The notes beneath the pieces were generated by a model. The model saw nothing but the letters and a program-made list of their open reading frames with translations. It ran no database searches and was not told where the DNA came from. The position numbers and the translations under genes were made by a program. This document shows, in pieces, positions 20,492-26,177 of a DNA stretch of 64,000 bases. The stretch is from Candidatus Moraniibacteriota bacterium (GTDB taxonomy: Bacteria > Patescibacteriota > Minisyncoccia > Moranbacterales > GCA-2747515). The stretch is from positions 705,734 to 769,733 of the forward strand of contig CP175956.1 of assembly GCA_046116545.1 (NCBI GenBank), given 5' to 3'. Numbering within the stretch: the first letter of the stretch is position 1; every line of letters starts with the position of its first letter.

Positions 20492-20610
20492 AACAAAAGT
20501 TATACAATAATACTAATTAATTTTCCTTAACCAAAAATCACTTTTAAAATTTCTTCTTCATTGTACTTTTTTCCAACATTTTTTGCAACAATTCTATAAT
20601 ATTCTAAATT

Positions 20611-21219
20611 TTATTCCCTAATTACTTCAATATTATCCATATCCATCAAATTCACAAGTCTTGATGGTTTTTGTTTTGGTAATATACCTGCATCTACCAC
20701 AATATCTGGTTTTACGTCTTTGAAATATTTATCTATTTCAGAAATGTCTTCCAATTCTTTTTTACCAGTAATATTAAGACTTGTAGAAACGATTGGAGCA
20801 TCTAGTACTTTTATCAAGTGTAATAAAAATTCACTTTTTGGTAACCGTACTGCAATTCCTTGGTCTTCACTTATTAGTTCTTTTATTACATTATTATTCC
20901 TACCTTTCAATATCACTGTTAGAGCACGTTCTTTTGACCATTCTTTTTTCAAATAATCATATTGTCGTTTAGACAAAAAACAATATTTTCTAATCATGCA
21001 AAAACTTCGCACTAATGATATTAAGTGCTTCTGTTGCTGGGGTGTGCGTTTCTTGATTTTATAAATCTTATCAATCGCATTTTGACTCGTTGCAATAGCA
21101 CTAAAACCATATACAGTTTCTGTCTGCAAAACCACAACATTCCCATCCTTTATCCTACCAGCAACAATCTCAACATCATCACTAGAAAAATCATCTAGAT
21201 CTATTTTTATAATTTCCAT
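20611..21219 (-). CDS. tsaC: L-threonylcarbamoyladenylate synthase (YrdC/TsaC family)
   Basis: ETVYGF motif and YrdC-like fold pattern. Confidence 0.7.
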   Translation of the reverse strand: MEIIKIDLDDFSSDDVEIVAGRIKDGNVVVLQTETVYGFSAIATSQNAIDKIYKIKKRTPQQQKHLISLVRSFCMIRKYCFLSKRQYDYLKKEWSKERALTVILKGRNNNVIKELISEDQGIAVRLPKSEFLLHLIKVLDAPIVSTSLNITGKKELEDISEIDKYFKDVKPDIVVDAGILPKQKPSRLVNLMDMDNIEVIRE

Positions 21220-21222
21220 CCA

Positions 21223-24200
21223 CTATACAACAATGCTGATAAGCTTTCCTTGTACAAAAATTACTTTTCTTACTTCTTTCCCGTCTATGTGTTTTTGTAC
21301 ATTTTCACTTGCTAATGCTTTTTCTGTTGCTTCTTCTTCTGTTATTCCTGTTGCTACACTTATTTTATCTCGTACCTTACCATTTACTTGTACAACTAGT
21401 TCTATTTCATCATCTACCAAATACTTTTCATCATATTCTGGCCAACTTTCTTCTATCAAAAATGTATTATTGCCCATCTCACTCCATAACTCTTGTGTTA
21501 AGTGTGGTGCAAAAGGTGACAGTACTTTTAAGAATTTACCAAAGTCTTCACTAGAAATACTTTTTTCAGTCTCTATTTCATTTGAAAGCATCATCATTGC
21601 ACTTATTGCTGTGTTGTATTTCATGTCTTCTATATCTTCTCCTACTTTTTTGATTGTTTTGTTTAATGTTCCTTTTAGCTTTTTAGATGTTTCAGCTTCT
21701 GTCCATTCACTATGATAAATCTTCCAAATCCTCTCCAAAAACTTTCTCGGACCAACAAGTCCATCAGTACTCCAAGCAACTGACGCATCAAATGGTCCCA
21801 TGAACATTTCATATACTCTGAATGTATCAGAGCCAAACCTATCGATTATATCATCAGGATTTATAACATTACCCCAACGCTTACTCATCTTACGTCCATC
21901 CTCTGCCATGATAAGTCCAACTGTCTGTAATTTTGAAAACGGTTCGTCATATGAAACAACTCCTATGTCATATAAGAACTTATGCCAAAATCGTGCATAA
22001 ATAAGATGTCGTGTAGCATGTTCTGCTCCACCTACATAAAAATCAACTGGTGACCAATATTTTTCTTTATCTTTATCAATTAATGCACTATCATTTTTTG
22101 GATCAATATACCTCAAGTAATACCAACTAGACCCAGCCCATTGTGGCATAGTATTTGTCTCACGCTTAGCCGGACCACTACACTCAGGACACTCAGTATT
22201 CACCCAGTCGTCAATTGCAGCAAGTGGTGATTCACCTGTTCCCGTTGGCTCATAGCTTTCCACCTCTGGAAGTATTAACGGTAGTTCATCTTCTGGCACA
22301 GTAACAACTCCACACTTCTCACAATGAATTAAAGGGATAGGTTCTCCCCAATACCTCTGACGACTAAACACCCAATCACGAAGCTTATAACTAGTAGTCA
22401 TTTCACCACCAGCCTTCTGCGTAATTGCTTCTTTAGCATCTTCTGAATCCATGCCATCAAATTCTCCAGAATTAACCATGATACCCGTTCCTGTAAAAAC
22501 TTTATCATTATTTATTTTATCCCACATAAATCTTTGACCTCCTGCTACAATTGCACTCTCCACTTCTTTCGCTGTCATCCATACGATATCATGTTTTACT
22601 TTTTCTTCATCACTTACTACATTTTGTTCATCACTTTCTAATTCAAAATAAAATGATTCAAAATGTGCAAATCTGTTAACATTTTTTGGATTATGAAAAA
22701 ACTTACTATGTGATTTACCTAAATTTTTAATCAATTTTAAATTTTTATAACCAGTCTCTTCTAAAATCTCAGTTCGTGCTGCTTCTTGGGCAGTTTGACC
22801 TTCTTCAATTCCTCCTGTAATAAATGTAATCCAAGCTACTTTCTTCCACTTTAATGTTAAATATTTATCTTCTTCCCAATGTTTCACAATTGCGGTAATT
22901 GTATCTCTTTCTATAAATTCTAAATCTTTTTTTGGTGCACTACTTTTTGTTTTATCTATAAATAATGGTTCTACAACTTCTTGCATATCAACGTCATATT
23001 TCTGAGCAAACTCAAAATCACGCTCATCATGAGCAGGTACTGCCATAATTGCACCAGTTCCATAATCAGCCAAAACATAATCTGCAATGAAGATTGGAAT
23101 TTCTTCGCCATTAACTGGATTTACTGCCATCACACCCTCAAGCCTTACACCTGTCTTTTCTTTTCCTTCAGCAGTTCGCTCAATCTCAGTTTTTGCTTGT
23201 GTTTGCTTTTGATACTCTGCAACTTCACTTCTATTTACAATCTCTAATTGTTCAAGTAACCCATGCTCAGGAGCAAGTACCATATAAGTAGCACCATATA
23301 AAGTATCTGGACGTGTTGTAAATACTTTGATGGATTTACCATTATCACTTTTACCTCCAACAGAACTCAGAGACAAACTATGACTGAAATCTAAAATTTC
23401 AACTATAACCTCTGGGAGTTCTTGTTTTATCAGCTTACTACCAAAATGCCCTTTATTATCAAATTTCAAAAATTTTGCATCTAATCCTTTTGCATTTTTC
23501 TCTCCATGTTCAAATGGCACCCAATCATCATCATGCGAATGAAGCACAACAAAATCATCACAATGTTGTTTAATTTTTTCAAAATCATATCCATCTTCAG
23601 TATAAAATCCATGTGTATTTTCTTTTGTATGTTTATCATCAATTTTTGCATAATTAGCAGCAACCAAAATAACTTTTTTGACTTTAAAATCTTTTGGCTG
23701 TTTTTCTAACCATCTCAAAATTGCAACACCTCCACGAGAATGTCCTATTAAAACTGTATTTTTGTTTGGCTTCAATTCGTCCAATTGAGCTAACCATTCA
23801 TCCATGTATGGATTTTCAGCATTCTTCAGAACTGGTGCCACAAATAAAATACCTTTTTTATTCATTTCTTCAGCAAGCCATAAATACCACTTTTCTTGTG
23901 GGTTTGTGTCCTTTCCATGCATCAAAATAACGTTTTCTTCTTGTTCTACGACTTTTTTTTGCAATAAACTTAAAATTTCTGGCACTTCTTTAACATTTTC
24001 ATCCTCACTCATGTGTCCATATTCTTTTAATATCTGAATATTAGCAATATCACCAAAATTTTCAATATAATACTCTCTTATCTCATCTGTAATCCAACCA
24101 TCCTTTTCACCAAAAATACAATTCATGTATGTAACATTTTGCTTTACCATTTCAATGTCTAAATTTCTATCTTGATAATTTTTAAAAATAATTAGTTCTT

Positions 24201-25263
24201 CTTTTGTTAATTTTTCTTTGAATTGTTCAAAATATAAACTATCTGGTTTTTCAAAACCAACGGGAGCGACAAGAACAAGGTTTTTTATCTTATATTTTTC
24301 TGCTAATTTCATCGCCAAAAGTCCACCCATACTATGTCCAACAACAGAAAAATCTTGAAGATTATTTTTTGCAATTTTTTCTTCTATAAAATTATACCAC
24401 TCATCAAAATCTGGCGTATCCGTATTTGGTGCATCAAACGCAAATACTCTGTGACCATCTTTTTCTAAAGAATCTTTTAACCACGGAATAAAATCAGTTT
24501 TTGAGCTACTTTCCCAACCATGTAAAATTAAAACATTTTCTTTTAATTCTTCATTCTTAATTCTAAATTCTATATTTGCTCCCTCACTTCGTCCTATCCA
24601 ATTCCTCTGTGATTCTTTGATGCTTTCTTGCCAATCAAGTTTATCTATGTCAGCGAGCATCCTATCTGCATAATCCGTAATTTTTATAACCCATTGTGGA
24701 ATTTTCTTTTTCTCAATCGGTGTATCACATCTCTCACAACAACCATTCTCTAAATCTTCATTTGCAAGTCCCGTTTTGCACGATGGGCACCAGTTAATCG
24801 GTTCATTTGATTGAAATATTAATCCCTTTTTATACATCTGAATAAAAGTCCACTGAGTCCATTTATAAAACTCTGGGTCTGTAGTCGAAATCTCTCGCTC
24901 CCAATCATAATTAAGAGAAATCTTTTCTAATTGTTTTTTAAAGGTTGCAATATTTTTATCCGTTCCTATACGTGGATGTACTTTATTTTTAAGTGCATAC
25001 TGTTCAGCAGGAAGTCCAAAAGCATCCCACCCCATTGGATGAAGTACATTGAAATTTTGCATTTTTTTATACCGAGAGATAATATCTGTTGCAATATAAC
25101 CCTTAGGATGACCCACATGGAGTCCTTCTCCTGATGGATATGGAAACATATCAAGAATATAAAATTTCTCTTTATCAGAGTCCTCTGTCGTTTTATAGAC
25201 ATTTGACTCATTCCATTTTTTACGCCATTTATCCTCAATTTCTTTGTGCTTATAGATTTTCAT
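21223..25263 (-). CDS. leuS: leucyl-tRNA synthetase with inserted tandem alpha/beta-hydrolase domains and a Nudix-like domain
   Basis: HIGH (HVGHPKGY) and KMSKS (KMSKRWGN) motifs; bacterial LeuRS blocks NWIGRSEGA and TTRPDT...AVPAHDERDFEFAQKY. Residues ~236-645 hold two YdeN/RBBP9-type serine-hydrolase domains (GHSMGG, GHSRGG). Residues ~781-920 hold a Nudix-like domain (WITFITGGIEEGQTAQEAARTEILEETGY). Confidence 0.9.
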   Translation of the reverse strand: MKIYKHKEIEDKWRKKWNESNVYKTTEDSDKEKFYILDMFPYPSGEGLHVGHPKGYIATDIISRYKKMQNFNVLHPMGWDAFGLPAEQYALKNKVHPRIGTDKNIATFKKQLEKISLNYDWEREISTTDPEFYKWTQWTFIQMYKKGLIFQSNEPINWCPSCKTGLANEDLENGCCERCDTPIEKKKIPQWVIKITDYADRMLADIDKLDWQESIKESQRNWIGRSEGANIEFRIKNEELKENVLILHGWESSSKTDFIPWLKDSLEKDGHRVFAFDAPNTDTPDFDEWYNFIEEKIAKNNLQDFSVVGHSMGGLLAMKLAEKYKIKNLVLVAPVGFEKPDSLYFEQFKEKLTKEELIIFKNYQDRNLDIEMVKQNVTYMNCIFGEKDGWITDEIREYYIENFGDIANIQILKEYGHMSEDENVKEVPEILSLLQKKVVEQEENVILMHGKDTNPQEKWYLWLAEEMNKKGILFVAPVLKNAENPYMDEWLAQLDELKPNKNTVLIGHSRGGVAILRWLEKQPKDFKVKKVILVAANYAKIDDKHTKENTHGFYTEDGYDFEKIKQHCDDFVVLHSHDDDWVPFEHGEKNAKGLDAKFLKFDNKGHFGSKLIKQELPEVIVEILDFSHSLSLSSVGGKSDNGKSIKVFTTRPDTLYGATYMVLAPEHGLLEQLEIVNRSEVAEYQKQTQAKTEIERTAEGKEKTGVRLEGVMAVNPVNGEEIPIFIADYVLADYGTGAIMAVPAHDERDFEFAQKYDVDMQEVVEPLFIDKTKSSAPKKDLEFIERDTITAIVKHWEEDKYLTLKWKKVAWITFITGGIEEGQTAQEAARTEILEETGYKNLKLIKNLGKSHSKFFHNPKNVNRFAHFESFYFELESDEQNVVSDEEKVKHDIVWMTAKEVESAIVAGGQRFMWDKINNDKVFTGTGIMVNSGEFDGMDSEDAKEAITQKAGGEMTTSYKLRDWVFSRQRYWGEPIPLIHCEKCGVVTVPEDELPLILPEVESYEPTGTGESPLAAIDDWVNTECPECSGPAKRETNTMPQWAGSSWYYLRYIDPKNDSALIDKDKEKYWSPVDFYVGGAEHATRHLIYARFWHKFLYDIGVVSYDEPFSKLQTVGLIMAEDGRKMSKRWGNVINPDDIIDRFGSDTFRVYEMFMGPFDASVAWSTDGLVGPRKFLERIWKIYHSEWTEAETSKKLKGTLNKTIKKVGEDIEDMKYNTAISAMMMLSNEIETEKSISSEDFGKFLKVLSPFAPHLTQELWSEMGNNTFLIEESWPEYDEKYLVDDEIELVVQVNGKVRDKISVATGITEEEATEKALASENVQKHIDGKEVRKVIFVQGKLISIVV

Positions 25264-25324
25264 AATTAAAAATACGATAAAGTTATATCTATAACCTTAT
25301 CGTATTTTGATGTTTTTTTCAAAC
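25263..25324. repeat. 62-nt direct repeat copy 1 (terminator-like hairpin element)
   Basis: taattaaaaatacgataaagttatatctataaccttatcgtattttgatgtttttttcaaac. Hairpin atacgataag/cttatcgtat plus a T-run. About 90% identical to the copy at 26315-26378. Confidence 0.7.
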
Positions 25325-25657
25325 ACCTGTCGTATTGCGAGGAAGCCCCGCTATCCTACACACATATTCGTACCAACCCTCATCTCTGTTTTGATGCTCA
25401 TATGGAAATATTTTTGTGATTATATTAATATCCACAATATCCTCATCACACAACTCCCCTTGGGTCGGAGGATGCTTTTTTTGTTTGTAATAATTGCGTA
25501 AAAACAGAATGACCTCCCAACATCCAGCATCTTTGATGTGACAATCTGGAAAATGACTTCTACTCCACTTTTCATTCCAATCACAAAACCTTAGCAAGTA
25601 CCCATAACTATCGCTATCATAATCTTCTCTTAAATCATCATACGTATTAACGGCCAT
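25319..25657 (-). CDS. hypothetical protein
   Basis: 112 aa, Cys/Trp/Tyr-rich, inside the repeat-bracketed cassette. Confidence 0.4.
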   Translation of the reverse strand: MAVNTYDDLREDYDSDSYGYLLRFCDWNEKWSRSHFPDCHIKDAGCWEVILFLRNYYKQKKHPPTQGELCDEDIVDINIITKIFPYEHQNRDEGWYEYVCRIAGLPRNTTGV

Positions 25658-25724
25658 AATAATTACCTCCTTGATAGCAAGCTTCTGATTTTAATGTTAA
25701 ATTACTTAGTTTTTTTCAAATACA

Positions 25725-26177
25725 TCAGAATTTTTGACGCATCGGCCTTTTACCTGTAATTTTTTTATCTACCGCGTCAAGGATTAAATCTTCCCCGCCA
25801 ATCCATACACTACCTGATTCACTACTACTGAGGTAGTAACCTTGTGAAGAGCTTAGAAACTCTTCTGCAAGTTGATGGTACTGAAGCATGTTAGTACTGT
25901 TATGTTTATGTGCATATAAGATTGCACTTATCATCGCATGTGATCCTGGTTTAATAAAAATCACACAGTCCGTATTACGATCAATAATTGGCCAAAGCTC
26001 ACATACACGCAAGATTTGCGCAAGATCACACCATGTACGTACAAAATCATTTCGCTGAAAAATCGGCACACAACCTCCACACTCTTTTACAAGATGAGCA
26101 TACAACCAATCTTCAAGTTGTTTGCTTACATTGAATTTTTTAACAAATTCATCAATCGTTATAACAATTTCTTTCAT
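25725..26177 (-). CDS. hypothetical protein
   Basis: 150 aa with no recognisable motif. Confidence 0.4.
   Translation of the reverse strand: MKEIVITIDEFVKKFNVSKQLEDWLYAHLVKECGGCVPIFQRNDFVRTWCDLAQILRVCELWPIIDRNTDCVIFIKPGSHAMISAILYAHKHNSTNMLQYHQLAEEFLSSSQGYYLSSSESGSVWIGGEDLILDAVDKKITGKRPMRQKF

What the first reader, a model, noticed from the sequence alone, without database searches (positions are those of the whole stretch)
23331..24558. Leucyl-tRNA synthetase carries two tandem RBBP9/YdeN-type serine-hydrolase domains at the entry to its editing domain
Directly visible: after the conserved NWIGRSEGANIEF block, about 410 residues are inserted before the editing-domain block TTRPDT (bacterial LeuRS has about 12 residues there). 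The insert holds two alpha/beta-hydrolase units with nucleophile elbows GHSMGG and GHSRGG. Both match the YdeN/RBBP9 (Ser_hydrolase) pattern (HG...W..WL, P.P..W, HS.GG, D..VP, GHF). The full protein is 1346 aa versus about 800-880 for typical bacterial LeuRS. A hydrolase next to the CP1 editing site suggests an extra ester-hydrolysing (deacylation-type) activity, but that is inference. I know of no described LeuRS with this architecture.
Basis: partly seen in the sequence, partly recalled or inferred. Interest (0 to 1): 0.85.

Follow-up and report, generated by a model that had tools for sequence, protein, structure and literature searches.

The report
LeuRS carrying inserted serine hydrolases
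The leucyl-tRNA synthetase of an uncultivated ultra-small (Patescibacteria/CPR) bacterium has two different RBBP9/YdeN-type serine hydrolases and a NUDIX hydrolase spliced into surface loops of its editing domain; the same small hydrolases sit in many other housekeeping proteins of ultra-small bacteria and archaea, a pattern I could not find described in the literature.

Summary
ORF 21223-25263 (-) encodes an uninterrupted 1346-aa bacterial-type LeuRS. About 403 residues (aa 242-644) sit in the turn of the beta-hairpin just before the TTRPDT editing motif. The insert holds two alpha/beta hydrolases. Each matches Pfam Ser_hydrolase, models at pLDDT ~92, and has YdeN and RBBP9 as best structural neighbours. 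Each keeps a Ser-Asp-His triad.

The two units are 27% identical and belong to different clades, so this is not a tandem duplication.

The architecture is one state of a mosaic. Orthologous Patescibacteria LeuRS at the same chromosomal locus carry no insert, NUDIX only, or one or two hydrolases of at least five clades, plus HAD, Ham1 or GNAT domains, at about four hot spots. The same hydrolase clades occur free-standing and fused to FtsY, uL22, eS19, Fmt, PheRS-beta, UvrB, NUDIX and others, in CPR bacteria and DPANN archaea.

LeuRS synthetic and CP1 editing motifs stay intact with or without the hydrolase. The best reading is captured, catalytically live accessory hydrolases hosted in a permissive loop. 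An extra tRNA-deacylation role is possible but unsupported.

The parts
21223..25263 (-). leuS ORF: 1346-aa bacterial-type leucyl-tRNA synthetase with three inserted domains
   Evidence: TIGR00396 scores 1020 bits. HIGH motif is HVGH at aa 49-52; KMSKS motif is KMSKR at aa 1125-1129.
24541..25263 (-). LeuRS N-terminal catalytic core, aa 1-241, ending with NWIGRSEGANIEFRIKNEELK (first strand of the CP1 hairpin)
   Evidence: aligned to Tt LeuRS 3-242..
23944..24540 (-). Hydrolase unit A (aa 242-440), clade A. Triad is S311 (24331-24333), D388 (24100-24102), H417 (24013-24015). It starts directly after K241 with no linker.
   Evidence: PF06821 at 1.7e-15. AF2 pLDDT 91.9. Foldseek best hits are YdeN 1uxo at 3.8e-13 and RBBP9 at 3.9e-11. 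The triad is invariant in 23/23 clade-A units.
23386..23943 (-). Hydrolase unit B (aa 441-626), clade B. Triad is S509 (23737-23739), D579 (23527-23529), H606 (23446-23448). E548 (23620-23622) aligns with RBBP9 Glu108, the alpha-amine anchor.
   Evidence: PF06821 at 5.9e-18. PDB sequence hits RBBP9 at 4.2e-15 and YdeN at 8e-14. AF2 pLDDT 91.7. Foldseek 1uxo at 6.5e-16 and 7oex at 7e-15. Triad conserved in 29-30/30 and E548 in 24/30.
23332..23385 (-). Low-complexity return linker, aa 627-644 (DFSHSLSLSSVGGKSDNGKS). It is related to the 'SC/RLRGNDN' linker kept in relatives after units of other clades.
   Evidence: pLDDT below 50..
22969..23331 (-). CP1 editing domain, first part (aa 645-765): second hairpin strand IKVF, T-rich motif TTRPDT, and GTGAIMAVPAHDERD
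   Evidence: PF13603 at 1.1e-59. Aligned to Tt 243-363. Motifs checked.
22504..22968 (-). NUDIX domain inserted inside the editing domain (aa 766-920). The Nudix box is GGIEEGQTAQEAARTEILEETGY.
   Evidence: PF00293 at 1.3e-13. It replaces Tt 364-374. E832, E835 and E836 are invariant in 76 homologous inserts. This copy has Q823 and T831 where most have E and R.
21223..22503 (-). Rest of CP1, second half of the Rossmann fold, anticodon-binding and C-terminal domains (aa 921-1346)
   Evidence: aligned to Tt 375-579 and 637-876. PF08264.

Best explanation
This is the working leucyl-tRNA synthetase of a Moranbacteria-type Patescibacteria (CPR) bacterium. Its CP1 surface loops host three captured accessory enzymes.

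Shown:
- Two different RBBP9/YdeN-type serine hydrolases, of clade A then clade B, lie in the turn of the beta-hairpin that precedes the T-rich editing motif.
- A NUDIX domain lies in a second loop of CP1.
- Both hydrolases keep complete Ser-Asp-His triads. These triads are invariant or nearly so across their clades, whatever protein hosts them.
- The LeuRS synthetic and editing motifs are intact.

Inferred:
- The units derive from free-standing ~185-aa hydrolase genes that are common in CPR bacteria and DPANN archaea.
- They were captured repeatedly, and swapped, at a few permissive hot spots of LeuRS and of other large housekeeping proteins. This parallels the repeated capture of the CAAD/Curt1 module by cyanobacterial class I synthetases.
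- Each unit folds on its own, tethered by a flexible ~18-residue return linker, and acts as an independent esterase or aminopeptidase.
- For unit B the likely substrate is an alpha-aminoacyl ester or amide with a free amino group. This rests on conservation of the RBBP9 Glu108 equivalent and on the known RBBP9 activities: valacyclovir hydrolysis and N-terminal aminopeptidase.
- The fusion provides constitutive co-expression and co-localisation with an essential enzyme. It does not add a step to leucine proofreading.
For: Identity and integrity of the host:
-. In the 120 closest relatives, HVGH is present in 120, KMSKR in 117, TTRPDT in 99 and VPAHDxRD in 112.
- Frequencies are similar with the hydrolase (25/33 TTRPDT, 29/33 VPAHDxRD, plus one VPSHDERD in the H set and two in the noH set) and without it (74/87, 83/87).

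Identity of the units.

Selection on catalysis, independent of host:
- Clade A: S311, D388 and H417 in 23/23.
- Clade B: S509 in 29/30; D578, D579 and H606 in 30/30.

Clean loop insertion: K241|...|I645, with insert-free orthologues reading ...NEELK|IKVFTTRPDT. The return linker is disordered.

Orthology of variants: the gene order NosD, CNNM/CBS, DsrC, leuS, Sua5, RNase T, Dxr is kept in relatives that have no insert, NUDIX only, a clade-C unit, or clade B+D units.

Mosaic of inserts:
- Among the top 120 LeuRS clusters, 18 have no insert, 39 have NUDIX only, and about 34 have a hydrolase. Hydrolases lie at site 2 (this hairpin) or at site 4 (after the HCEKCG motif).
- Other relatives carry HAD, Ham1, GNAT or PDDEXK domains.

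Recurrent capture, from NJ bootstraps:
- Clade A 106/110, clade B 93/110, clade C 110/110, clade D 109/110.
- The clade-B unit of LeuRS P0058 groups with that of a glycosyltransferase, 108/110.
- All LeuRS clade-B units monophyletic: 0/110.

Other hosts: FtsY, uL22, eS19, Fmt, YidD-Fmt, PheRS-beta, UvrB, NUDIX, Ham1, cytidylate kinase, glycosyltransferase and transglutaminase-like proteins.

Free-standing form predominates among the closest genomic matches: 23 of 32 loci. The clade has at least 573 loci, spread over CPR and DPANN genomes.

Substrate hint: E548 aligns with RBBP9 Glu108. RBBP9 needs a free alpha-amine, anchored by Glu108 (PMC8866121). RBBP9 is a valacyclovir-activating enzyme (Shenoy 2020, as cited in PMC7730578).

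Precedent: CAAD was captured independently, at internal sites, by seven class I aaRS, and its removal barely changes catalysis (PMC4893482).
Against: - No activity has been measured for any member of these clades.
- The substrate inference rests on one aligned residue in unit B. Nothing comparable is available for unit A.
- The insertion point is only about five residues before the T-rich strand of the editing pocket.
- A clade-B unit also sits right after the B3/4 editing domain of PheRS-beta.
- Every fused host found for clade A is a translation or targeting protein: LeuRS, FtsY, uL22, eS19. Functional coupling to translation is therefore not excluded.
- I could not obtain coordinates for a full-length model, so the geometry relative to the editing and synthetic sites is unknown.
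- The mechanism that places a whole gene in frame into a loop is unknown. No flanking repeats were found.
- The NJ trees are distance-based and built on ~186 columns.
Confidence: 0.6

Rival explanations
1. The hydrolases are an added proofreading layer for LeuRS: they hydrolyse mischarged aminoacyl-tRNALeu or misactivated aminoacyl-adenylate next to CP1.
For: - The insert emerges from the hairpin directly upstream of TTRPDT.
- The RBBP9 family hydrolyses an aminoacyl ester of a nucleoside analogue, and N-terminal residues with a free amine.
- The Glu108 equivalent is conserved in unit B.
- A clade-B unit is inserted next to the B3/4 editing domain of PheRS-beta, and another in Met-tRNA formyltransferase.
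Against: - CP1 catalytic motifs are not relaxed in hydrolase-bearing LeuRS.
- Close orthologues do without any hydrolase (P0068, P0056).
- The same clades are inserted at a different LeuRS site far along the sequence, at about aa 984.
- The same clades sit in UvrB, a glycosyltransferase, Ham1, NUDIX and cytidylate kinase, and are mostly free-standing.
- Pfam finds no similarity to known trans-editing families such as YbaK, AlaX or DTD.
Confidence: 0.15
2. The units are translation-coupled aminopeptidases or esterases that act on nascent-chain N-termini or on peptidyl- or aminoacyl-tRNA. They are recruited to whatever translation component tolerates them. LeuRS is one scaffold among FtsY, uL22, eS19, Fmt and PheRS-beta.
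For: - All fused hosts found for clade A are LeuRS, FtsY, uL22 or eS19.
- uL22 and FtsY act at the ribosomal tunnel exit (established knowledge).
- RBBP9 is an N-terminal aminopeptidase.
- Clade-B units occur in Fmt, YidD-Fmt and PheRS-beta.
Against: - Clade-B hosts also include UvrB, a glycosyltransferase, Ham1, NUDIX, cytidylate kinase and a transglutaminase-like protein.
- Translation proteins make up a large share of the big conserved proteins in these tiny genomes, so the enrichment was not tested against a null.
- LeuRS is not known to sit at the tunnel exit.
Confidence: 0.15
3. The inserts are functionless passengers: neutral or selfish insertions, or structural spacers that are tolerated but decaying.
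For: - Presence and absence are patchy among close orthologues.
- There is no conserved neighbourhood or partner.
- GC3 in the inserts is slightly lower (0.14-0.20) than in the core (0.24-0.27).
Against: - The triads, oxyanion HG motif and nucleophile elbows are invariant or nearly so across hosts.
- The units diverge at about the rate of the LeuRS core. Unit B is 78% identical to P0055's against 82-90% for the core. Unit A is 60% identical to P0066's against 62-71% for the core.
- The AF2 models are confident.
Confidence: 0.07
4. An artefact or a removable element: a misassembly or frameshift that joins separate genes, or an intein or intron removed before the mature protein is made.
For: None found. 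The three deposited contigs carrying it are 100% identical to the window, so they give no independent confirmation of this exact sequence.
Against: - The insert is internal, with LeuRS sequence in frame on both sides.
- The same junction is present in many non-identical relatives from other samples.
- There is no Hint or intein family hit, and the +1 residue is Ile.
- There is no Rfam intron or other RNA family.
Confidence: 0.02

Closest known systems
CAAD (Curt1-like) insertions in cyanobacterial class I aminoacyl-tRNA synthetases (Olmedo-Verd et al. 2011; PMC4893482)
   Same: A module that also exists as a free-standing gene was captured repeatedly and independently at internal surface positions of class I aaRS, LeuRS included. 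The captures are confined to one lineage and patchy among species, and the synthetase stays active.
   Different: CAAD is a non-enzymatic membrane anchor of two transmembrane helices, present as one copy. Here the modules are soluble enzymes with intact active sites, up to three per protein. [quoted passage not shown]
RBBP9 / B. subtilis YdeN serine hydrolases (Pfam PF06821; PDB 2qs9, 7oex, 1uxo)
   Same: The same minimal ~185-aa alpha/beta-hydrolase fold without a lid (TM 0.78-0.88). The same HG...GHSxGG...D...H layout. Unit B keeps the Glu that anchors the substrate alpha-amine in RBBP9.
   Different: Sequence identity is only 18-26%. Known members are free-standing. Unit A has an extra ~25-residue helical segment after strand 6, and its amine-anchor position is unresolved. 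No activity is known for the CPR/DPANN clades.
Bacterial LeuRS with canonical CP1 editing domain (T. thermophilus 1h3n/2byt, E. coli 4aq7)
   Same: Full collinear match of the catalytic core, CP1, anticodon-binding and C-terminal domains. HIGH, KMSKS, the T-rich motif and the conserved Asp are all present.
   Different: About 403 extra residues in the first CP1 hairpin and about 155 in a later CP1 loop. There is no equivalent of the T. thermophilus segment 580-636, which holds its leucine-specific domain.
IleRS with an N-acetyltransferase domain (NCBIfam NF040702 ileS_w_GNAT)
   Same: A bacterial class Ia synthetase carrying an extra small enzymatic domain. A GNAT also occurs inside some CPR LeuRS (P0283).
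   Different: A different enzyme family and host. I did not examine its position or distribution.
Free-standing trans-editing deacylases (YbaK/ProXp, AlaX, DTD)
   Same: These would be the functional analogue if the rival 'extra deacylase' reading were true.
   Different: The fold is unrelated. There is no sequence similarity (no Pfam hit) and no evidence here for tRNA binding.

Membership tests
Bacterial-type leucyl-tRNA synthetase (TIGR00396 leuS_bact) | Whole-protein HMM score above the curated cut-off | tested here: met
   1020 bits against a cut-off of 548.4. E = 2.6e-219 to T. thermophilus LeuRS.
Bacterial-type leucyl-tRNA synthetase (TIGR00396 leuS_bact) | Class I signature motifs HIGH and KMSKS | tested here: met
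   HVGH at aa 49-52 and KMSKR at aa 1125-1129.
Bacterial-type leucyl-tRNA synthetase (TIGR00396 leuS_bact) | CP1 editing domain with the T-rich motif and the conserved Asp | tested here: met
   PF13603 at 1.1e-59. TTRPDT at aa 649-654 and VPAHDERD are present.
Bacterial-type leucyl-tRNA synthetase (TIGR00396 leuS_bact) | Leucylation and editing activity | not testable with these tools
   Needs enzymology. Whether the genome holds a second leuS could not be checked beyond the 64-kb window.
Ser_hydrolase / RBBP9-YdeN family (PF06821) | HMM score above the gathering threshold for each unit on its own | tested here: met
   Unit A 57.8 bits and unit B 65.8 bits, cut-off 22. PF06821 is the best family for both.
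Ser_hydrolase / RBBP9-YdeN family (PF06821) | Minimal alpha/beta-hydrolase fold closest to YdeN/RBBP9 | tested here: met
   AF2 pLDDT 91.9 and 91.7. The top Foldseek PDB hits are 1uxo, then 2qs9/7oex/9fcr, for both units, with TM 0.71-0.88.
Ser_hydrolase / RBBP9-YdeN family (PF06821) | Ser-Asp-His triad with a GxSxG elbow | tested here: met
   S311/D388/H417 and S509/D579/H606. They align to RBBP9 S75/D138/H165 and are invariant or nearly so in each clade.
Ser_hydrolase / RBBP9-YdeN family (PF06821) | Alpha-amine anchor (RBBP9 Glu108) implying aminoacyl substrates | tested here: inconclusive
   Unit B has E548 aligned to Glu108, conserved in 24/30. Unit A could not be aligned reliably in this segment.
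Ser_hydrolase / RBBP9-YdeN family (PF06821) | Hydrolase activity on esters or amides | not testable with these tools
   Needs assays with purified protein.
NUDIX hydrolase (PF00293) | HMM above threshold and the Nudix box Gx5Ex7REUxEExGU | tested here: inconclusive
   51.5 bits against a cut-off of 21.1. The three glutamates of the REUxEE segment are present and invariant in 76 homologous inserts. This copy has Q for the first box Glu and T for the box Arg.
Intein / Hint domain | Hint-fold HMM match and a Cys/Ser/Thr nucleophile at the first intein residue and at the +1 extein residue | tested here: not met
   No Hint or intein family among the Pfam hits. The junction residues are E242 and I645.
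aa-tRNA trans-editing domains (YbaK, AlaX, DTD) | Sequence membership in those families | tested here: not met
   No such Pfam or NCBIfam hit in the insert.

The most novel reading that the evidence does not exclude
Ultra-small CPR bacteria and DPANN archaea have repeatedly wired RBBP9-type aminoacyl-ester or aminopeptidase modules into their translation machinery. The hosts include the LeuRS CP1 hairpin, PheRS-beta beside its B3/4 editing domain, Met-tRNA formyltransferase, uL22 and FtsY at the tunnel exit, and eS19. This would create a tethered quality-control or N-terminal-processing activity that has no counterpart in model organisms. In LeuRS it would act on aminoacyl-tRNA or aminoacyl-adenylate next to the editing site.
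Probability: 0.17. Interest if true: 0.85.

Novelty: new variant of a known kind. Interest (0 to 1): 0.62.

Why it matters
Bacterial aminoacyl-tRNA synthetases are textbook examples of conserved architecture. Extra enzymatic domains inside them are rare.

Here an essential synthetase serves as a landing pad for up to three live hydrolases. Its orthologues show fast gain, loss and swapping of such modules at defined hot spots. The same modules are shared between CPR bacteria and DPANN archaea at 55-66% identity and are embedded in many core proteins.

This gives four things:
- A natural map of loops in LeuRS that tolerate insertions of whole domains.
- A tractable system for studying how whole genes are captured in frame into other genes in reduced genomes.
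- A candidate marker of gene exchange between the two ultra-small radiations.
- A set of uncharacterised but clearly selected hydrolases whose substrates may reveal a metabolic or translation-quality need specific to episymbionts.

It also has a practical side. Automatic annotation mislabels this essential LeuRS as 'alpha/beta fold hydrolase'.

Tried and rejected
- DNA repeats around the insert, looked for as target-site duplications or terminal inverted repeats: only short chance-level matches.
- Rfam over 20500-26000 at E <= 0.1, looking for an intron, T-box or other RNA: nothing.
- PADLOC defence models: only a weak CARF6 match (2.7e-5, 21.6 bits) to part of unit A. I judged it a generic alpha/beta similarity.
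- Other copies of the units or of the NUDIX domain in the window: none.
- A joint alignment of the A+B insert with all homologues (A1) was unusable for unit A, because MAFFT stacked clade-A sequences on unit B. I therefore modelled the units separately (A2, A3).
- A full-length model was not attempted. The protein exceeds 1200 aa and the tool returns no coordinates, so the geometry question could not be answered.
- Neighbourhood of free-standing clade-B genes: no recurrent neighbour family.
- The first bootstrap run was invalid because of NaN distances. I repeated it with capped distances.
- Contigs L001 and L002 turned out to be 100% identical to the window. I do not count them as independent confirmation.
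- Six literature searches returned results, and I searched inside two further papers. They covered LeuRS plus Nudix plus Patescibacteria, CPR plus aaRS plus insertion, LeuRS plus CPR, and CPR plus DPANN plus hydrolase-domain fusions. None described this architecture.
- The profile search with A2 also pulled in plain uL22 and LeuRS proteins, because host columns were part of the profile. Only rows carrying hydrolase Pfam families were used.

Full report
**Observation**

The window holds one long uninterrupted ORF on the minus strand, 21223-25263, of 1346 aa.
- It scores 1020 bits on the bacterial LeuRS equivalog TIGR00396, cut-off 548.
- It aligns collinearly with T. thermophilus LeuRS 1h3n in four blocks: query 3-241 with Tt 3-242, 645-765 with 243-363, 921-1120 with 375-579, and 1125-1346 with 637-876.
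- Two segments therefore have no counterpart: aa 242-644 and aa 766-920.
NWIGRSEGANIEF is aa 221-233, TTRPDT is aa 649-654, GHSMGG is aa 309-314 and GHSRGG is aa 507-512. Its coordinates 23331-24558 correspond to aa 236-645.

**What the inserts are**

Scanned on their own, the two halves of the first insert each have PF06821 Ser_hydrolase as their best Pfam family, at 1.7e-15 and 5.9e-18. The second insert is a NUDIX domain at 1.3e-13.

Unit B hits RBBP9 (4.2e-15) and B. subtilis YdeN (8e-14) by sequence in the PDB. Its S509, D579 and H606 are aligned to the RBBP9 triad S75, D138 and H165.

AlphaFold models built from clade-specific alignments are confident: pLDDT 91.9 for unit A and 91.7 for unit B. 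Only the C-terminal linker, about aa 627-645, is disordered.

For both models the best solved-structure neighbours are YdeN 1uxo, then RBBP9 2qs9/7oex/9fcr, with TM 0.71-0.88.

The units are only 27% identical to each other and never group as sisters (0/110 bootstraps). This is not a tandem duplication.

**Where exactly the inserts sit**

An alignment with insert-free close relatives shows a clean loop insertion (P0068 and P0082, whose cores are 73-90% identical to this protein). Those relatives read ...NWIGRSEGANIEFxxKxxxxK|IKVFTTRPDT.... Here 403 residues lie between K241 and I645.

This is the turn of the first beta-hairpin of CP1, five residues before the T-rich editing motif. The N-terminal side has no linker. 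The C-terminal side has an ~18-residue low-complexity linker.

The NUDIX domain replaces a short loop (Tt 364-374) later in CP1.

**Artefact, intron or intein?**

LeuRS sequence is in frame on both sides of the insert. No Hint or intein family is detected and the +1 residue is Ile. Rfam finds nothing in the region.

The deposited contigs that encode the identical protein come from a JGI metagenome and from NCBI MAG GCA_008633355.1, labelled Candidatus Moraniibacteriota. They are 100% identical to the window, so they are the same population and not independent evidence.

The real support is that the same junction, with related but non-identical inserts, occurs in many LeuRS from other samples.

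**The wider picture**

Among the 120 best LeuRS clusters, all of the CPR type, the architecture is a mosaic:
- 18 have no insert.
- 39 have only the NUDIX domain in CP1.
- About 34 carry one or two hydrolase units, either in this hairpin (site 2) or after the HCEKCG motif near aa 984 (site 4).
- Others carry one or two NUDIX domains before the NWIGRSEG block.
- Others again carry HAD, Ham1/ITPase, GNAT or PDDEXK domains.
- Only the window protein combines two hydrolases with the CP1 NUDIX domain.

Relatives with different insert sets occupy the same chromosomal locus: NosD-like, CNNM/CBS, DsrC-like, leuS, Sua5, RNase T, Dxr. They are therefore orthologues.

A tree of 87 hydrolase units resolves at least five clades: A 106/110, B 93/110, C 110/110, D 109/110, plus a large clade found only in LeuRS.
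- The same hairpin holds units of all five clades in different LeuRS.
- The window has A+B, P0055 has B+D, P0058 has D+B, and P0062 has C.
- Across these, a similar 3' linker (SC/RLRGNDN) is retained. This suggests cassette exchange upstream of a fixed landing pad.
- LeuRS clade-B units are not monophyletic (0/110). P0058's unit groups with that of a glycosyltransferase (108/110).

**Other hosts**

The same clades, at 45-64% identity, are embedded in or fused to many proteins:
- FtsY, some copies also carrying a histidine phosphatase domain
- uL22 and eS19
- Met-tRNA formyltransferase, also as YidD-unit-Fmt
- PheRS-beta, between the B3/4 and B5 domains
- UvrB
- NUDIX proteins, in either order
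- Ham1 and cytidylate kinase
- a glycosyltransferase and a transglutaminase-like protein

In species-representative genomes the clade-B profile finds at least 573 loci. They are spread over many CPR lineages and over DPANN archaea (Woesearchaeota, Nanoarchaeia, Pacearchaeota, Micrarchaeota, Altiarchaeota). The closest matches are mostly free-standing ~185-aa genes, 23 of 32 loci.

The representative library counts 741 clusters at E <= 1e-10.

**Are the units alive, and do they replace editing?**

The triads are invariant or nearly so within each clade, whatever the host:
- Clade A: 23/23 for Ser, Asp and His.
- Clade B: 29-30/30.

The units diverge at about the pace of the LeuRS core. Unit B is 78% identical to P0055's, against 82-90% for the core. 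Unit A is 60% identical to P0066's, against 62-71% for the core. Both observations argue for purifying selection on catalysis.

The LeuRS HIGH, KMSKS, T-rich and VPAHDxRD motifs are equally intact in relatives with and without a hydrolase. There is therefore no sign that the hydrolase substitutes for CP1.

**Mechanism**

The best-supported reading is that free-standing RBBP9/YdeN-like hydrolase genes were repeatedly captured into permissive surface loops of large essential proteins. There they fold independently on a flexible tether and work as autonomous esterases or aminopeptidases.

For unit B, the residue aligned with RBBP9 Glu108 is conserved: E548, in 24/30 sequences. Glu108 anchors the free alpha-amine of the substrate (PMC8866121). 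RBBP9 also activates valacyclovir, an aminoacyl ester of a nucleoside analogue (Shenoy 2020, cited in PMC7730578). An alpha-aminoacyl ester or amide is thus the most likely substrate type. This is inference.

The closest precedent is the CAAD module of cyanobacteria. It was captured independently at internal sites of seven class I aaRS, LeuRS included, with little effect on catalysis (PMC4893482).

**Rivals**

Direct participation in LeuRS proofreading stays possible. The points in its favour are the proximity to the T-rich strand, the insertion next to the B3/4 domain of PheRS-beta, and the fact that clade A is found only in translation-linked hosts. It lacks specific support, and it is weakened by the non-translation hosts, the alternative LeuRS sites and the insert-free orthologues.

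A broader role coupled to translation is a lead worth testing. One example would be N-terminal processing at the tunnel exit, for the uL22 and FtsY fusions.

A functionless passenger is unlikely given the conservation. An artefact is essentially excluded.

**Novelty**

Sequences with this architecture have been public since at least 2015. P0123, from Woesebacteria GW2011_GWA1_39_21b, is named 'Leucyl-tRNA synthetase'.

Six literature searches and look-ups inside two further papers found no description of hydrolase or NUDIX insertions in CPR LeuRS, and none of the wider fusion pattern.

I rate it a new variant of a known kind: an aaRS with captured internal modules, carrying members of a known hydrolase family. 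Its interest is moderate to high for specialists in aaRS and in CPR/DPANN biology.

Noticed in passing
window 22504-22968 (-), aa 766-920 of the LeuRS: A NUDIX domain is inserted inside the CP1 editing domain. This is the commonest insert in CPR LeuRS: it is the only insert in 39 of the 120 closest clusters. The three REUxEE glutamates are invariant in 76 homologous inserts. This copy has Q823 and T831 where most have Glu and Arg.
   Followed up: partly
L083 2651-3274; L084 7257-7931; L085 6102-6647: In three relatives with other insert sets (P0068, P0055, P0062), an IS200/IS605-type Y1 transposase gene (PF01797) lies just downstream of leuS (60 and 36 nt in L083 and L085; about 650 nt, after one intervening minus-strand gene, in L084). 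It is absent at that position in the window, where Sua5 follows directly. Any link to the turnover of inserts is unknown.
   Followed up: no
L006 3414-3992 and 3989-4546: A free-standing clade-D-like hydrolase gene (IIIHGCPGDEEKAMDPETRTYDKHWLPW...) lies directly upstream of a free-standing clade-B gene. This is the same D-then-B order as the fused pair inside LeuRS P0058, which hints that gene pairs can be captured together.
   Followed up: no
window 23332-23385; L084 and L085 at the 3' junction of their inserts: The linker returning from the insert to CP1 is similar in relatives (SCLRGNDN, SRLRGNDN, SCVGVNDK; here SSVGGKSDN), whichever hydrolase clade precedes it. It behaves as if it belonged to the landing site rather than to the unit.
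   Followed up: partly
P0181, P0345, P0013 (proteins); loci L005, L017, L021, L024: Genomes labelled DPANN archaea (Nanoarchaeota, Woesearchaeota, 'Euryarchaeota SM23-78') encode bacterial-type LeuRS carrying the same hydrolase units. Their free-standing clade-B genes are 60-66% identical to the CPR ones. This suggests gene exchange between the two ultra-small radiations, or mis-binning.
   Followed up: no
window 25319-25657 (-): A 112-aa DsrC/TusE-family ORF (PF04358) lies immediately upstream of leuS, in an organism not expected to reduce sulfite. It is conserved at this position in relative L085.
   Followed up: no
P0054 database record: NCBI's automatic name for this essential LeuRS is 'alpha/beta fold hydrolase', while JGI calls it leucyl-tRNA synthetase. 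The inserts mislead name assignment, which could make leuS look absent in completeness or metabolic surveys.
   Followed up: no
window 23329-24564 (-), aa 94-186 of the insert: There is a weak PADLOC match to a CARF6 model (E = 2.7e-5, 21.6 bits) over part of unit A. It is probably a generic alpha/beta similarity.
   Followed up: no
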